This document shows, one piece after another, positions 47,543 to 63,561 of a DNA stretch of 64,000 nt. The first letter of the stretch is position 1. Every line of letters starts with the position of its first letter. The translations under genes were made by a program, and so were the position numbers. Under the pieces are notes generated by a model that was not told the DNA's origin, did not search any database, and saw only the letters and a program-made list of their open reading frames with translations. The stretch is from an uncultured Candidatus Saccharibacteria bacterium (lineage in GTDB: Bacteria; Patescibacteriota; Minisyncoccia; Minisyncoccales; GWA2-46-15), in NCBI GenBank assembly GCA_964437545.1, contig CAYTHH010000001.1, positions 14,381 through 78,380 on the forward strand, read 5' to 3'.

Positions 47543-47803
47543 TTATTCAATAGATCCTTTGGGGATTTTTTCCCCACAGTTCGGGCAATTAATTACTATC
47601 CCCCTTATTTTTCTTCCACAATTCGGACATTTAGTACTACTTCCTTTTTTAGAAGAATGCCTGATCTTTACGGTTCCCTGGACAGTTTCTACGGGCGGAG
47701 TACTAATACAATTCTCACATCCGCTGGGTGCGAGATTACATCCGATACAGATATTAGTGAAAAACATTGTTGTTCCTCCAATTGGTCTATGTCCTTCCAA
47801 CAT
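47543..47803 (-). CDS. double zinc-ribbon protein
   Basis: CPNCGRKIRGIVINCPNCGEKI and CIGCNLAPSGCENC, 86 aa. Confidence 0.5.
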   Translation of the reverse strand: MLEGHRPIGGTTMFFTNICIGCNLAPSGCENCISTPPVETVQGTVKIRHSSKKGSSTKCPNCGRKIRGIVINCPNCGEKIPKGSIE

Positions 47804-47867
47804 AATGGAAGGTTAATGAAAGAGCTGAAAGGTTTAGAGCGTTCCCTACCGGAGTCGAACCAGCTTG

Positions 47868-47939
47868 CGGCCTTGACGGGAGTCGAACCCGTGTGCCATG
47901 GTTGAGAACCATGTATCCTAACCACTAGATGACAAGGCC
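47868..47939 (-). tRNA. tRNA-Glu (anticodon CTC)
   Basis: Acceptor GGCCTTG/CAAGGCC, D-loop AGTGGTTAG, anticodon loop TTCTCAA, T-loop TTCGACT. Confidence 0.7.
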
Positions 47940-47944
47940 TTTAT

Positions 47945-47985
47945 TGCCGCAAGCCTGATGTCCTAACCACTAGACGATGGGGGCA
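47945..47985 (-). other. tRNA-Glu-like 5' half (positions 1 to about 34), no matching 3' half adjacent
   Basis: GCCCCCATCGTCTAGTGGTTAGGACATCAGGCTT closely matches a tRNA-Glu 5' half. A T-arm/acceptor-like fragment lies on the other side of tRNA-Glu at 47841-47867. Confidence 0.5.
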
Positions 47986-55716: not shown

Positions 55717-55790
55717 AAATAACTTTTTATTTAGTATGTGGGCGGTATAGGGTTCGAATCAGGGGTTAGCGTTGAATTTGAGATAAAATG

Positions 55791-55862
55791 TGGGTATTGC
55801 TGGATTCGAACCAGCGACCTTCCCGATGTGAACGGGATGCTCTACCACTGAGCTAAACACCC
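55791..55862 (-). tRNA. tRNA-Val (anticodon CAC)
   Basis: Acceptor GGGTGTT/AATACCC (one GU pair), D-arm GCTCAGTGGTAGAGC, anticodon loop TTCACAT, T-loop TTCGAAT. Confidence 0.75.
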
Positions 55863-56119
55863 AATTCTGTTAAAAGCATTATTCTTTTAACCCGCCCTTA
55901 TTATTAGTTTTTACCTTTTCAGAATACAAATGTCTAGCTTTTATCAAAAGCTAAAATCATTTATAGCAATCGAAGATTCGATATATCGGGTATTTTACCC
56001 GTTATAGCTGCTGGTATACCAGACCTCCAGTCTGTTATAATTAATTTAAGAATTAAATTAATTTCCTATTGGATATAATTAACAAAGTTAATTACTCTTT
56101 CCAGAGAGTTAATTAACCA

Positions 56120-61974: not shown

Positions 61975-62015
61975 ATTTGTGCGGGGATGCCTGGATTCGC
62001 CCCCCACCAATTTAG

Positions 62016-62086
62016 CGGGGACACTCCGACTTGAACGGAGATCAGCGGTTTTGGAGACCGCCATTCTGCCATTGAACTATGTCCCC
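62016..62086 (-). tRNA. tRNA-Trp (anticodon CCA)
   Basis: Acceptor GGGGACA/TGTCCCC, anticodon loop CTCCAAA, T-loop TTCAAGT. Confidence 0.75.
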
Positions 62087-62093
62087 ATATTTT

Positions 62094-62137
62094 GGCGGGG
62101 GGTTAGAGACGCCATTTTACCATTGAACCACCTCCCC
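62094..62137 (-). other. tRNA-Trp-like 5' fragment with an aberrant 12-nt anticodon loop
   Basis: GGGGAGGTGGTTCAATGGTAAAATGGCGTCTCTAACCCCCCGCC parallels the tRNA-Trp 5' half. A G-rich complement lies on the other side of tRNA-Trp at 61981-62015. Confidence 0.45.
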
Positions 62138-62170
62138 TCTTTAATAATTATAATACACTAAAAAAGTTTT

Positions 62171-63136
62171 TCAATGTTTTTCTTCTATTAGCTGATTCAG
62201 AACTTTTTTTACTAAACCAAGGCTTTCTTCATCAATAACCGAGATAGCCATTACTTGCTTATTGGCTTTTTTCAATTGTTTTAACTTTTCGTTTACCTCT
62301 TTGGGCTTCAGCAAATCAGCTTTGGCTAAAAGAACATATTCAGGCTTTGATAATAGCTTGGGATTGTAGGCAGCCAGCTCATCCCTAATTACTTGATAGT
62401 CTTTGGCTAAATCTAAAGACTCAGCTGAAACCAAATGAAAAAGGGTTTTGGTCCTTTCGATATGGCGCAAGAACTTAATTCCCAACCCCTTGCCGCCTGA
62501 AGCTCCTTCAATCAAACCAGGAATATCAGCCAGGATTAATTCATAATAGGTTCCTAGATTTGGATCAAGAGTGGTAAAAGGATAATTAGCCACTTTGCTT
62601 TTAGCATTAGTTAATTCGTTGAGCAAGCTTGATTTGCCGGCATTAGGTAGGCCAATCAGACCAACGTCAGCGATTAGCTTTAATTCAAGCCTTAATTCAA
62701 ATTCCTGGCCCATTGTGCCTTCCTGGAATTGTTTCGGAGTAGTATTAGTTGAAGATCTGAATTTAAAGTTGCCCTTGCCACCCCGTCCCCCTTTAGCTAT
62801 TAAAAGGCGCTGGCCAAGACTGATAATTTCTTGTCCTTCATTGGTAGTTAGATTGTATATAACGGTTCCGACTGGCACTCTGAGGGTTAAGTCATCAGCA
62901 TCTTGGCCGTCGTTAAATTGGGCTTTGCCGTTTTTACCATCTTCAGCTGTGACTACTTTTTTATAACGGAATTGATTAAGACTGCTTAAATTAGAAATTC
63001 CTTCAAGGTAAATACTGCCACCCTTGCCGCCATCTGCTCCGGTTGGTCCCAAAGACATTTGATTCTTATTAAAAGCCACGGCGCCATCCCCACCTTTACC
63101 AGCTTTAACTGTAATTTTAATGTTGTCAATTAGCAT
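62171..63136 (-). CDS. obg: GTPase Obg
   Basis: Obg fold N-terminus (KAGKGGDGAVAF), G1 GLPNAGKSSL, G3 DIPG. Short form of 321 aa. Confidence 0.85.
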   Translation of the reverse strand: MLIDNIKITVKAGKGGDGAVAFNKNQMSLGPTGADGGKGGSIYLEGISNLSSLNQFRYKKVVTAEDGKNGKAQFNDGQDADDLTLRVPVGTVIYNLTTNEGQEIISLGQRLLIAKGGRGGKGNFKFRSSTNTTPKQFQEGTMGQEFELRLELKLIADVGLIGLPNAGKSSLLNELTNAKSKVANYPFTTLDPNLGTYYELILADIPGLIEGASGGKGLGIKFLRHIERTKTLFHLVSAESLDLAKDYQVIRDELAAYNPKLLSKPEYVLLAKADLLKPKEVNEKLKQLKKANKQVMAISVIDEESLGLVKKVLNQLIEEKH

Positions 63137-63444: not shown

Positions 63445-63488
63445 AAAATTTCCTACGAATTACGAATAATTACGAATATACGAATTTG

Positions 63489-63561
63489 AGCCCGAGCGCA
63501 GATTTGCACTGCGGACCTCATTCTTACCAAGAATGTGCTCTGCTACCTGAGCTACTCGGGC
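63489..63561 (-). tRNA. tRNA-Thr (anticodon GGT)
   Basis: Acceptor GCCCGAG/CTCGGGC, anticodon loop TTGGTAA, T-arm CGCAGTGCAAATCTGCG. Confidence 0.75.

What the first reader, a model, noticed from the sequence alone, without database searches (positions are those of the whole stretch)
47841..47985. Complete tRNAs flanked by half-tRNA-like fragments with complementary junctions (three loci)
Around tRNA-Glu(CTC) there is an upstream Glu-like 5' half ending inside the anticodon loop (positions 1 to about 34), and a downstream T-arm/acceptor-like piece (CTGGTTCGACTCCGGTAGGGAAC). The junction sequences CTTGCGGC and GCCGCAAG are reverse complements. The same layout recurs at tRNA-Trp (62016-62086): a Trp-like 5' fragment with a 12-nt anticodon loop at 62094-62137, a G-rich piece at 61981-62015, and CCCCCCGCCAA pairing with TTGGTGGGGGG across the embedded tRNA. 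An inverted T-arm-like fragment also lies 16 bp from tRNA-Val (55749-55763). Possible explanations are fossil att-site duplications from integrase activity, processing stems, or something more exotic such as split or permuted tRNA precursors. The coordinates of this entry cover the tRNA-Glu locus only.
Basis: seen in the sequence. Interest (0 to 1): 0.55.

Follow-up and report, generated by a model that had tools for sequence, protein, structure and literature searches.

The report
Relics of replaced tRNA genes
Three tRNA genes of this candidate-phyla-radiation bacterium sit inside the broken remains of the older tRNA genes they replaced, probably as footprints of a small endonuclease-linked cassette that swaps tRNA genes in this group of bacteria.

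Summary
The window is a Parcubacteria (CPR) chromosome. tRNA-Glu(CTC), tRNA-Trp and tRNA-Val are each complete and are flanked on the same strand by pieces of a second tRNA of the same identity.

Close relatives carry one intact tRNA at each site, and its sequence and downstream flank match the outer pieces. So the outer pieces are the resident tRNA gene, split by insertion of a roughly 85-100-bp cassette that carries a different, complete tRNA with the same anticodon. They are not split, permuted or intron-containing tRNAs, not integrase att repeats, and not scars of a tandem array.

The 10-11-bp complementary junctions are significant (Glu p<0.0005, Trp p=0.0025). The same leader-trailer helix occurs around other tRNAs of the clade.

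In related CPR genomes the same layout still holds an 80-aa GIY-YIG nuclease gene between the old 5' part and the new tRNA. The old copy is cut at GTTC|GAATC in the T-loop by a GC-rich double hairpin. Nine of ten such ORFs are followed by a tRNA starting within about 35 nt of the stop codon.

I infer that the window's loci are nuclease-less end products of this process. The closest known analogue is phage T4 SegB. No description of this arrangement was found in the literature searched.

The parts
47951..47984 (-). Glu outer 5' relic: positions 1 to about 34 of the resident (ancestral) tRNA-Glu(CTC), GCCCCCATCGTCTAGTGGTTAGGACATCAGGCTT.
   Evidence: 30/34 identical to the single tRNA-Glu of relative L001, against 26/34 for the inner tRNA. 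Local alignment score 52 against a shuffle maximum of 19.
47940..47955 (-). Glu junction and leader: 5' arm of the flanking helix (GGCTTGCGGC, 47946-47955) plus the AATAAA spacer. The reading frame TTG CGG CAA TAA ends 1 nt before the tRNA.
47868..47939 (-). Inner, live tRNA-Glu(CTC). Acceptor GGCCTTG/CAAGGCC; the D-stem carries a compensated A-T pair. It is a different tRNA from the resident one (52/72 identical to L001's).
47862..47871 (-). 3' arm of the Glu flanking helix (GCCGCAAGCT). It overlaps the last 4 nt of the inner tRNA.
47840..47864 (-). Glu outer 3' relic: T-arm plus acceptor 3' strand plus discriminator of the resident tRNA-Glu (GCTGGTTCGACTCCGGTAGGGAACG). Three acceptor positions have mutated.
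   Evidence: It is followed by the same downstream flank (CTCT....CTTTCAGCTCTTTCATTAACC) that follows the intact tRNA in L001. Score 31 against a shuffle maximum of 22.
62147..62174 (-). Promoter-like site TTGAAA-16-TATAAT (11 of 12), about 10 nt upstream of the Trp outer 5' relic. It would transcribe the relic, the inner tRNA and the 3' relic as one precursor.
   Evidence: This is a consensus match only.
62092..62137 (-). Trp outer 5' relic: acceptor 5' strand GGGGAGG, D-arm and a decayed anticodon arm. Its last 11 nt (62092-62102, CCCCCCGCCAA) form the 5' arm of the flanking helix.
62016..62086 (-). Inner, live tRNA-Trp(CCA).
61982..62010 (-). Trp outer 3' relic. TTGGT[GGGGGG]CGAATCCAGGCATCCCCG is a T-arm with a G6 run in the T-loop, followed by the acceptor 3' strand. 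Positions 62000-62010 form the 3' arm of the helix. It ends 7 nt before the def start codon.
   Evidence: CGAATCCAGGCA..CCCG matches the 3' end of the single tRNA-Trp of L027, L028 and L030 at 17 of 19 positions.
55891..55897 (-). Val outer 5' remnant (GGGCGG, start of the acceptor of an older tRNA-Val). The rest of the 5' part has been deleted in this lineage.
   Evidence: Alignment A3 with L002, L001 and L030, which keep GGGCGGTTAGCTCAGTGG in the same upstream context.
55869..55891 (-). Conserved leader hairpin (GTTAAAAG-loop-CTTTTAAC). In relatives it is the first of two hairpins inserted in the D-loop of the old tRNA-Val copy.
   Evidence: 8 pairs, 24 of 24 cells paired and 2 pairs changed on both sides across three lineages (row 'slide +1'; my structure string was one column off).
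55791..55862 (-). Inner, live tRNA-Val(CAC), GGGTGTT type.
   Evidence: (72.8 bits).
55739..55765 (-). Val outer 3' relic: decayed T-loop plus acceptor 3' strand ACCGCCC plus A of the older GGGCGGT-type tRNA-Val.
   Evidence: 19 of 21 positions match the 3' end of the intact tRNA-Val of L015. The same relic is present in L001 and L030.

Best explanation
Each locus is a resident tRNA gene that was split by the insertion of a short cassette carrying a complete, different tRNA with the same anticodon. The inner tRNA is the working gene. The outer pieces are the decaying halves of the gene it replaced.

Shown:
- Relatives carry one intact tRNA of the outer type at the same position, with the same downstream flank.
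- The outer pieces cannot form a tRNA.
- At the Val locus the process has happened more than once.

Inferred, about 50% likely:
- The cassette arrived through the activity of a small free-standing GIY-YIG nuclease element that targets the T-psi-C loop of tRNA genes and brings its own tRNA copy. Related CPR genomes still show [old tRNA cut at GTTC|GAATC by a double hairpin]-[80-aa GIY-YIG ORF]-[complete tRNA, often bracketed by an inverted repeat]-[old 3' piece].
- In the window, the nuclease gene and the adjacent part of the old gene have since been deleted. That would explain why the 3' relics always start at or in the T-arm while the 5' relics end at variable points.

Inferred, about 30% likely:
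- The complementary junctions are the cassette's leader-trailer helix. In a precursor transcribed from the old gene's promoter, this helix would bracket the new tRNA. It might serve as a double-strand-specific processing site, or it might keep the new tRNA from mispairing with the homologous old halves.
For: Organism and synteny:
- The neighbouring genes are bacterial (PBP2/FtsI, RsmH, ClpB-like, MltG, Obg, Def), and the relatives are Patescibacteria/Parcubacteria MAGs.
- A tRNA-Glu(CTC) was called at 18 of the 19 related PBP loci, in most right after the PBP gene.

Outer pieces are the resident gene:
- L001 (PBP 88% identical) and L002 (79%) have a single tRNA-Glu, GCCCCTATCGTCTAGTGGTTAGGACATCGGG...CCGGTTCGACTCCGGTTGGGGGCG. 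The window's outer 5' piece matches L001's at 30 of 34 positions, including the diagnostic acceptor, D-stem and anticodon-stem positions.
- The outer 3' piece, not the inner tRNA, is followed by the orthologous downstream flank.
- Trp: L027, L028 and L030 have a single tRNA-Trp whose 3' end matches the window's outer 3' piece.
- Val: window, L002, L001 and L030 share the same outer 5' start and context and, except L002, the same outer 3' relic. The inner tRNA is GGGTGTT-type in the window and L002 but GCGCGCA-type in L001 and L030. This is serial replacement.

Not an artefact: the locus is identical in four independent assemblies.

Link to a nuclease element:
- 10 small GIY-YIG ORFs were seen in related CPR loci (Pfam PF01541, E=1.4e-12). 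Nine are followed by a full tRNA (Gln, Ser, Tyr or Leu) starting within about 35 nt of the stop codon.
- In 7 of 9 ORFs examined, the sequence just upstream reads GTTC[30-31-nt GC double hairpin]GAATC, which is a T-loop split in two. In six of these the T-loop belongs to an old copy of the tRNA that follows the ORF. In L082 it is a fragment of a neighbouring tRNA-Gln(CTG).
- L041 and L043 are fully nested, with an old 3' piece downstream of the new tRNA.
- An identical nuclease protein with an identical hairpin and UTR occurs in at least three genomic contexts.
- At the Trp locus itself, L022 has a GIY-YIG ORF just downstream of an old-type tRNA-Trp, and L031 has a new-type tRNA-Trp plus an old-type 3' relic abutting def.

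Flanking helix:
- The new tRNAs next to nuclease genes are bracketed by inverted repeats: L043 12 bp, L041 about 20 bp, L082 11 of 13.
- 5 of 51 tRNA contexts have p<0.01, where 0.5 would be expected. They include window Glu, window Trp, L041 and L043.
- The old Val copy in L001, L002 and L030 carries a double hairpin in its D-loop, as do the old copies in L047 and L075.

Precedent: T4 SegB is a GIY-YIG homing endonuclease. Its 27-bp site contains the 11-bp T-psi-C stem-loop motif, and it spreads itself together with neighbouring tRNA genes (PMC2330249).
Against: - No GIY-YIG ORF or remnant is detectable in the window (phmmer on all six-frame ORFs of at least 40 aa). The GC-rich double hairpin is also absent. 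The link to the nuclease element therefore rests on shared architecture in other genomes.
- No nuclease-bearing allele was found at the Glu or Val loci.
- The window's 5' breakpoints lie in or near the anticodon loop (Glu, Trp), not at GTTC|GAATC, so a secondary deletion has to be assumed. The Glu outer 3' relic keeps an intact T-loop.
- The 80-aa proteins have only a catalytic domain. Their closest solved relatives are UPF0213 proteins of unknown function. No cleavage activity has been shown.
- Flanking helices also occur at tRNAs with no visible relics (L010, L055). They may be a general pre-tRNA feature of the clade rather than a cassette hallmark.
- The overall Glu fold is not more stable than shuffles (z=-0.93).
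Confidence: 0.7

Rival explanations
1. Nuclease-independent replacement. DNA taken up from another Parcubacterium, carrying its tRNA with short flanks, was inserted into the resident tRNA gene by illegitimate or microhomology-mediated recombination. tRNA genes are the only stretches similar enough between species to anchor such events. The inverted repeats came along as the donor's own leader-trailer helix.
For: There is no nuclease gene or double hairpin in the window. The breakpoints differ between loci. Leader-trailer helices occur at ordinary tRNAs of the clade. The inner tRNAs resemble tRNAs of other Parcubacteria; for example, the Glu T-arm ACACGGGTTCGACTCCCGT is also found in L004.
Against: Three of five tRNAs in 64 kb are affected, always by a tRNA with the same anticodon and always in the same orientation. 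Related genomes show the same nested layout with a tRNA-linked nuclease gene in place.
Confidence: 0.2
2. Fossil att sites. A tyrosine-integrase element integrated into the tRNA gene, duplicating part of it, and was later almost entirely deleted.
For: The 3' relics start in or at the T-arm, and the 5' relics end in the anticodon loop. These are the two classical crossover sublocations of tRNA-targeting integrases (my own knowledge: Williams 2002, Nucleic Acids Res). L005 shows a 15-nt exact repeat of a tRNA-Glu 3' end 90 nt downstream. An archaeal precedent of a tRNA fragment next to a tRNA with a mobile element in between is PMC3293823.
Against: Integrase events duplicate only the segment shared by attP and attB and yield a chimeric tRNA. 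Here the live tRNA is new in both halves, with perfectly self-complementary new acceptor strands. A 5' relic exists. The 3' relic is not a copy of the live tRNA's own 3' end (about 15 of 25 positions by eye) and is followed by the resident downstream flank; its similarity to the relatives' tRNA (20/25) is about the same as the live tRNA's own 3' end (19/25). None of the neighbouring proteins scanned has an integrase domain.
Confidence: 0.06
3. Functional disrupted tRNA. The outer halves are exons of a split, permuted or intron-containing tRNA whose 'intron' is another tRNA, and they are joined after the inner tRNA is excised.
For: A stable helix brings the two junctions together, as in the Nanoarchaeum split tRNAs (my own knowledge). 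The outer 5' half would be co-transcribed.
Against: The outer Glu lacks positions 35 to about 49, including the anticodon. Its acceptor strands pair at 4 of 7 positions. The outer Trp has a decayed anticodon (CTA/TAA context) and a disrupted T-loop. No tRNA is called when the two Glu outer pieces are joined with the insert removed or in intron mode. The junction helix is continuous, without a bulge-helix-bulge. The organism is a bacterium. Relatives have plain, uninterrupted genes.
Confidence: 0.02
4. Deletion scars of a tandem array of isoacceptor genes that predates the species.
For: The nuclease-linked loci in other CPR genomes are effectively tandem copies (old copy, ORF, new copy).
Against: At the Glu and Trp sites every relative examined has a single tRNA. 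The outer pieces flank the inner gene on both sides rather than lying in series.
Confidence: 0.02

Closest known systems
Phage T4 SegB, a free-standing GIY-YIG homing endonuclease in the T4 tRNA gene cluster (PMC2330249)
   Same: It is a GIY-YIG nuclease gene embedded among tRNA genes. Its recognition site includes the conserved T-psi-C stem-loop motif, and it spreads together with the adjacent tRNA genes without an intron. The CPR ORFs found here sit at a T-loop split at GTTC|GAATC and are followed directly by a tRNA.
   Different: SegB is a phage protein; as I recall it is roughly 200 aa and, like other Seg/I-TevI-type enzymes, is thought to have a DNA-binding region beyond the catalytic domain (own knowledge, not checked here). 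The CPR proteins are 77-83 aa, consist of the catalytic domain only, are chromosomal, are accompanied by a GC-rich double hairpin, and come with a duplicated copy of the very tRNA they interrupt. The window has no nuclease gene at all. Activity is untested.
Integrative elements that target tRNA genes and leave partial tRNA repeats (att sites)
   Same: tRNA fragments lie next to an intact tRNA. Breakpoints are in the anticodon loop or the T-loop. The element restores tRNA function.
   Different: Here a whole new tRNA is supplied instead of a matching 3' segment. Both a 5' and a 3' relic remain. The insert is only about 85-100 bp. There is no integrase.
tRNA-Thr fragment plus mobile element in Caldiarchaeum subterraneum (PMC3293823)
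   Same: A 5' fragment of one tRNA allele lies upstream of a second, live allele of the same isoacceptor. The authors attribute this to a mobile element.
   Different: That case is archaeal, with a 1.8-kb recombinase-bearing element between the two, and the outcome is linked to intron gain and gene splitting. Here the case is bacterial, the insert is tiny, and the old gene is simply dead.
Split tRNA genes of Nanoarchaeum equitans (my own knowledge)
   Same: A 5' half ends near the anticodon loop and is followed by a GC-rich sequence complementary to a sequence preceding a 3' piece.
   Different: In Nanoarchaeum the halves are complete and complementary and are joined by the archaeal splicing machinery. 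Here the halves are incomplete, mutually mismatched, and orthologous to an ordinary uninterrupted gene in relatives.
Group I introns in bacterial tRNA anticodon loops
   Same: An insertion in the anticodon loop of a bacterial tRNA gene.
   Different: The insert is a tRNA, not a ribozyme. There is no Intron_gpI match, and the flanking exons are incomplete.

Membership tests
Split or intron-containing (BHB) tRNA | The two outer pieces together give a complete cloverleaf with an anticodon and a paired acceptor stem. | tested here: not met
   Positions 35 to about 49 are absent. The Glu acceptor pairs at 4 of 7 positions. ARAGORN finds nothing when the two Glu outer pieces are joined with the insert removed, or in intron mode.
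Split or intron-containing (BHB) tRNA | A bulge-helix-bulge motif at the junctions. | tested here: not met
   The predicted junction helices are continuous 10-11-bp stems without 3-nt bulges.
Split or intron-containing (BHB) tRNA | A splicing endonuclease and ligase encoded by the organism. | not testable with these tools
   Only 64 kb of the genome is available. The gene content is bacterial.
Permuted tRNA | The 3' half is encoded upstream of the 5' half. | tested here: not met
   The order is 5' piece, inner tRNA, 3' piece at all three loci.
Integrase att-site duplication at a tRNA gene | The repeat is a copy of the live tRNA's own 3' segment. | tested here: not met
   The Glu outer 3' piece is not a copy of the inner tRNA's own 3' end (about 15 of 25 positions by eye). 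It is followed by the resident downstream flank, although its identity to the relatives' tRNA (20/25) is about the same as the inner 3' end's (19/25).
Integrase att-site duplication at a tRNA gene | An integrase-bearing element lies between the tRNA and the repeat. | tested here: not met
   The live tRNA and the relics are 0-31 nt apart. The neighbouring proteins have no integrase domain.
Free-standing GIY-YIG homing endonuclease cassette (SegB-like) | A GIY-YIG ORF lies adjacent to the target gene. | tested here: not met
   None in the window. Met in related CPR loci L018, L022, L041, L043, L047, L055, L063, L064, L075 and L082.
Free-standing GIY-YIG homing endonuclease cassette (SegB-like) | Presence/absence polymorphism at the same site among relatives, with the target sequence disrupted in the occupied allele. 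| tested here: inconclusive
   Empty sites exist (L001 and L002 for Glu; L027 and L030 for Trp) alongside occupied sites (the window). Within the species, all four assemblies are occupied. In the nuclease-bearing loci the T-loop is split.
Free-standing GIY-YIG homing endonuclease cassette (SegB-like) | Site-specific cleavage of the empty allele. | not testable with these tools
   This needs an enzyme assay.
Group I intron in tRNA | A ribozyme core recognised by the Rfam Intron_gpI model. | tested here: not met
   There is no such match at the gathering threshold or at E<=10.

The most novel reading that the evidence does not exclude
CPR/Parcubacteria chromosomes host a family of miniature mobile cassettes: an 80-aa GIY-YIG nuclease, a GC-rich double hairpin, and a spare tRNA bracketed by a leader-trailer helix. 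These cassettes home into the T-psi-C loop of tRNA genes and replace the resident tRNA with their own copy. The effect is serial, xenologous turnover of tRNA genes. The window's Glu, Trp and Val loci would be the nuclease-less end products. The old 5' halves are still transcribed as leaders, so tRNA-half-like RNAs would be made as a by-product.
Probability: 0.4. Interest if true: 0.75.

Novelty: new variant of a known kind. Interest (0 to 1): 0.6.

Why it matters
tRNA genes are usually treated as stable, vertically inherited landmarks. They are also seen as passive landing pads for integrases. Here three of the five tRNA genes in 64 kb have been physically replaced by foreign copies with the same anticodon, and at the Val site this happened more than once.

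If the link to the tRNA-associated GIY-YIG genes holds, it describes a cellular counterpart of T4 SegB. Such an element solves the problem of attacking an essential gene by carrying a spare copy of it. That would bear on three things:
- tRNA phylogenies and codon-reassignment studies in CPR bacteria;
- tRNA annotation, because relics and hairpin-interrupted copies confuse gene finders;
- how selfish nucleases persist in very small genomes.

It also predicts abundant tRNA-half-like leader RNAs that could be mistaken for regulated tRNA fragments.

Tried and rejected
- ARAGORN with introns of 0-300 nt and a lowered threshold found no intron-containing or split tRNA at the three loci. It returned only scattered low-score calls elsewhere.
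- Rfam at E<=10 on 261-nt slices did not score the fragments and found no intron, ribozyme or other family.
- Looking for a phage origin of the inner tRNA-Glu gave nothing. An exact 37-mer had no match in IMG/VR, and blastn against GenBank phages returned only generic tRNA-Glu similarity of 83-85%.
- A search of the window for a GIY-YIG ORF and for the GC-rich hairpin motif CGCC-N3-5-GGCG found neither.
- The metagenome scan with MltG gave only three loci. Two of them carried no tRNA.
- Seven literature searches found no description of nested tRNAs or tRNA-linked GIY-YIG cassettes in CPR bacteria.
- I considered target-site duplications at the insert ends. None is convincing (Glu CAGG/CTGG; Trp none).
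- I considered that the G6 run in the Trp relic's T-loop is a footprint of the double-hairpin site. It lies 1-2 nt from GTTC|GAATC, so this is not claimed.
- I considered that TTG CGG CAA TAA upstream of the inner tRNA-Glu is the tail of a lost nuclease ORF. Three codons are too few to test.
Full report
**What is there**

The window is a stretch of a Patescibacteria/Parcubacteria (CPR) chromosome of about 37% G+C. Its genes include PBP2/FtsI, RsmH, a ClpB-like ATPase, MltG/YceG, Obg and peptide deformylase. The best matches to its PBP are Parcubacteria, Nealsonbacteria and Staskawiczbacteria MAGs.

ARAGORN finds five tRNA genes, all on the minus strand and none with an encoded CCA: Gln, Glu(CTC), Val(CAC), Trp and Thr(GGT).

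- Glu locus: GCCCCCATCGTCTAGTGGTTAGGACATCAGGCTT | GCGGCAATAAA | complete tRNA-Glu | (GCC G)C AAG | CTGGTTCGACTCCGGTAGGGAACG.
- Trp locus: GGGGAGGTGGTTCAATGGTAAAATGGCGTCTCTAA CCCCCCGCCAA | AATAT | complete tRNA-Trp | CTAAA | TTGGTGGGGGG CGAATCCAGGCATCCCCG.

The pieces are tRNA-derived well beyond chance, and the junction complementarity is significant (Glu p<0.0005, Trp p=0.0025). Both helices appear in the minimum-free-energy folds. The Glu locus is identical in four independent assemblies from different samples.

The piece at 55739-55765 is a same-strand 3' end of an older tRNA-Val, and a matching 5' remnant (GGGCGG) lies upstream at 55891-55897.

**What the outer pieces are**

Nineteen related loci were fetched with the adjacent PBP gene. 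A tRNA-Glu(CTC) was called at 18 of them, in most right after the PBP gene and always a single gene.

In the two closest relatives (L001, PBP 88% identical; L002, 79%) that tRNA is GCCCCTATCGTCTAGTGGTTAGGACATCGGGTTCTCAA...ACACCGGTTCGACTCCGGTTGGGGGCG. This is the window's outer type, not its inner tRNA (GGCCTTGTCATC...CAAGGCCG). The outer 5' piece matches L001 at 30 of 34 positions, against 26 of 34 for the inner tRNA. The differences fall in the diagnostic acceptor, D-stem and anticodon-stem positions.

The sequence that follows the intact tRNA in L001 (CTCTGGGGCTTTTCAGCTCTTTTATCAACC) follows the outer 3' piece in the window (CTCTAAACCTTTCAGCTCTTTCATTAACC), not the inner tRNA. So the outer pieces are the resident gene. 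An insert of about 87 bp (linker plus a complete foreign tRNA-Glu with the same anticodon) has replaced positions 35 to about 49 of it.

The same holds for Trp. L027, L028 and L030 (Def 81-72% identical) have a single tRNA-Trp ending ...CGAATCCAGGCAGACCCG, which matches the window's outer 3' piece.

For Val, the window, L002, L001 and L030 share the same outer 5' start and upstream context (alignment A3). The window, L001 and L030 also share the outer 3' relic. The live inner gene is GGGTGTT-type in the window and L002 but GCGCGCA-type in L001 and L030. The site has therefore been overwritten at least twice.

**What the outer pieces are not**

- Not a split, permuted or intron-containing tRNA. 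The anticodon and the 3' strand of the anticodon stem are missing. The Glu acceptor strands pair at only 4 of 7 positions. The Trp relic has a decayed anticodon loop and a G6 run in its T-loop. Joining the two Glu outer pieces, with the insert removed, gives no tRNA call. The junction helices have no bulge-helix-bulge.
- No Rfam family other than tRNA matches the region.
- Not att repeats of an integrase. The live gene is new in both halves, a 5' relic exists, the 3' relic is not a copy of the live gene's 3' end, and there is no integrase or room for one.
- Not scars of a tandem array, because relatives have one gene.

**A mechanism lead from relatives**

A screen of all fetched loci for tRNA fragments turned up L018. 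There a tRNA-Gln copy breaks off at GGTTC in its T-loop. It is followed by GC-rich hairpins, an 83-aa ORF with a GIY-YIG domain (Pfam E=1.4e-12), and then an intact copy of the same tRNA.

I then looked up seven homologues of that ORF from different CPR genomes. Every one is followed by a full tRNA starting within about 35 nt of the stop codon:

| Protein | tRNA that follows |
|---|---|
| P0242 | Gln |
| P0256 | Gln |
| P0276 | Ser(TGA) |
| P0249 | Tyr |
| P0274 | Tyr |
| P0336 | Leu(CAA) |
| P0277 | Gln(TTG) |

With L018 and a second ORF in L082, that makes nine of the ten ORFs seen. The exception, L022, has the ORF just downstream of a tRNA-Trp.

In seven of nine ORFs examined, the sequence just upstream reads GTTC[30-31-nt double hairpin]GAATC, a T-loop split in two. 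In six of them it belongs to an old copy of the very tRNA that follows the ORF. Old copies often carry further hairpins in the D-loop or the anticodon loop.

L041 and L043 are fully nested: old 5' part, hairpins, nuclease gene, complete tRNA, old 3' piece. One identical nuclease protein (P0277), with identical hairpins and leader, occurs in at least three genomic contexts, which argues for mobility.

The complete tRNA next to the nuclease gene is bracketed by an inverted repeat in L043 (12 bp), L041 (about 20 bp) and L082 (11 of 13). Among 51 distinct tRNA contexts, the five with p<0.01 flank complementarity are these L041 and L043 tRNAs, the window's Glu and Trp, and one more.

At the Trp locus itself, L022 has an old-type tRNA-Trp followed by a GIY-YIG ORF. 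L031 has a new-type tRNA-Trp followed by an old-type 3' relic beginning at C56 and abutting def, as in the window.

The old tRNA-Val copy of L001, L002 and L030 carries a double hairpin in its D-loop. The first of these hairpins survives in the window and is kept through two compensatory changes.

**How it most likely works**

Shown: a resident tRNA gene was split by a cassette carrying a complete tRNA with the same anticodon, and the old halves are decaying.

Inferred, about even odds: the cassette was delivered by a small free-standing GIY-YIG nuclease element that cuts tRNA genes in the T-psi-C loop and carries its own tRNA copy, so that killing the resident gene is harmless. The nuclease gene lies 5' of the new tRNA. 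It and the adjoining part of the old gene were later deleted. This would explain why all 3' relics begin at or in the T-arm (Glu position 49/50, Val about 49-52, Trp 49-56) while the 5' relics end at different points: Glu 34, Trp about 36-44, and Val 6 in the window against 33 in L001.

The precedent is T4 SegB, a GIY-YIG homing endonuclease. Its 27-bp site contains the 11-bp T-psi-C stem-loop motif, and it spreads with the neighbouring tRNA genes (PMC2330249).

Inferred, weaker: the complementary junctions are the cassette's leader-trailer helix.
- At the Trp locus a strong promoter-like site (TTGAAA-16-TATAAT) lies just upstream of the old 5' half. The precursor would then be old half, helix arm, new tRNA, helix arm, old 3' piece.
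- Both helices contain a G-U pair that would be a C-A mismatch on the other strand. This fits an RNA-level role, such as a double-strand-specific processing site or insulation of the new tRNA from the homologous old halves.
- Similar helices flank some tRNAs without relics. The helix may therefore be a general pre-tRNA feature of the clade that came in with the donor gene.

**Weak points**

- The window has no GIY-YIG ORF or GC-rich double hairpin.
- No nuclease-bearing allele of the Glu or Val loci was found.
- The 80-aa proteins have only a catalytic domain. Their nearest solved relatives are UPF0213 proteins of unknown function. No activity is known.
- A nuclease-independent route, uptake of foreign DNA followed by illegitimate recombination anchored on tRNA similarity, remains a serious rival.

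**Comparison and novelty**

Partial tRNA copies next to tRNA genes are familiar as integrase footprints (my own knowledge). An archaeal case of a tRNA fragment upstream of a live allele has been tied to a mobile element (PMC3293823). SegB shows that a GIY-YIG enzyme can target the T-psi-C motif.

Seven searches found no description of the following:
- a complete same-anticodon tRNA nested inside the two halves of the gene it replaced;
- repeated occurrence of this in one small bacterial genome;
- the associated family of minimal GIY-YIG, hairpin and tRNA cassettes in CPR chromosomes.

I rate it a new variant of a known kind (endonuclease- or mobile-element-driven turnover at tRNA genes), with moderate to high interest. 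The window's loci themselves are best described as fossils with a possibly functional leader-trailer helix.

Noticed in passing
window 63488-63561 (-): tRNA-Thr(GGT) called by ARAGORN has a clean cloverleaf but a non-canonical T-loop, UGCAAAU (G at position 55). The Rfam tRNA model misses it at the gathering threshold and even at E<=10 on a 221-nt slice. The same 74 nt are 100% identical in L030, a different species whose Def is 72% identical, so the gene is probably functional.
   Followed up: partly
L018 19496-19967; L041 1105-1567; L043 1103-1697; L047 1045-1533; L055 1052-1546; L075 about 1040-1548; L082 562-1225: A family of 77-83-aa GIY-YIG ORFs in CPR genomes. Each is followed directly by a tRNA and usually preceded by an old copy of that tRNA split at GTTC|GAATC by a conserved 30-31-nt GC-rich double hairpin. 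Further hairpins sit in the D-loop or anticodon loop of the old copies. No description was found in the literature searched.
   Followed up: partly
L012 12209-12281, L013 8536-8613, L014 13421-13493, L015 11832-11905, L018 11850-11925: In five relatives the tRNA-Glu(CTC) downstream of the PBP gene is on the opposite strand to the PBP gene. In the window and 12 other relatives it is co-oriented. The tRNA unit has therefore been inverted or re-inserted at this site.
   Followed up: no
L005 9455-9635: tRNA-Glu is followed, 90 nt downstream, by an exact 15-nt repeat of its own 3' end (TCCCGTCAGGGCTGC). A long perfect hairpin lies in between. This looks like a small insertion with a target duplication, or an att-type scar.
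   Followed up: no
window 55869-55891 (-), with L001, L002 and L030: The AT-rich hairpin in the leader of tRNA-Val is kept through two compensatory base-pair changes across three lineages, although it lies inside a dead tRNA copy. It is therefore under selection for a role that is unknown.
   Followed up: partly
L037 and L040 (Logan assemblies of the window's species): Two independent Logan contigs end at exactly the same base inside the inner tRNA-Glu (after ...CATGGTTCT, in the anticodon loop). This suggests an assembly-graph branch there, caused by a repeat or a population variant.
   Followed up: no
window 47543-47803 (-): A small Cys-rich ORF of 86 aa with weak zinc-ribbon matches lies directly downstream of the Glu locus. 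Its upstream region is conserved in L001.
   Followed up: no
51 tRNA contexts in the window and fetched loci: Leader-trailer complementarity around tRNA genes is more common than expected in this clade: 9 of 51 at p<0.05 and 5 of 51 at p<0.01. It includes tRNAs without visible relics (L010 Glu, L055 Trp and Thr).
   Followed up: partly
L030 15590-15715 compared with L001 90-110: L001 and L030 share a nearly identical nested Val locus, but the acceptor 5' strand of the old copy differs at two of seven bases (GGGTGTT against GGGCGGT). L001's version equals the 5' end of the window's live tRNA-Val, which suggests gene conversion. L030 also has an extra insert of about 130 nt upstream.
   Followed up: no
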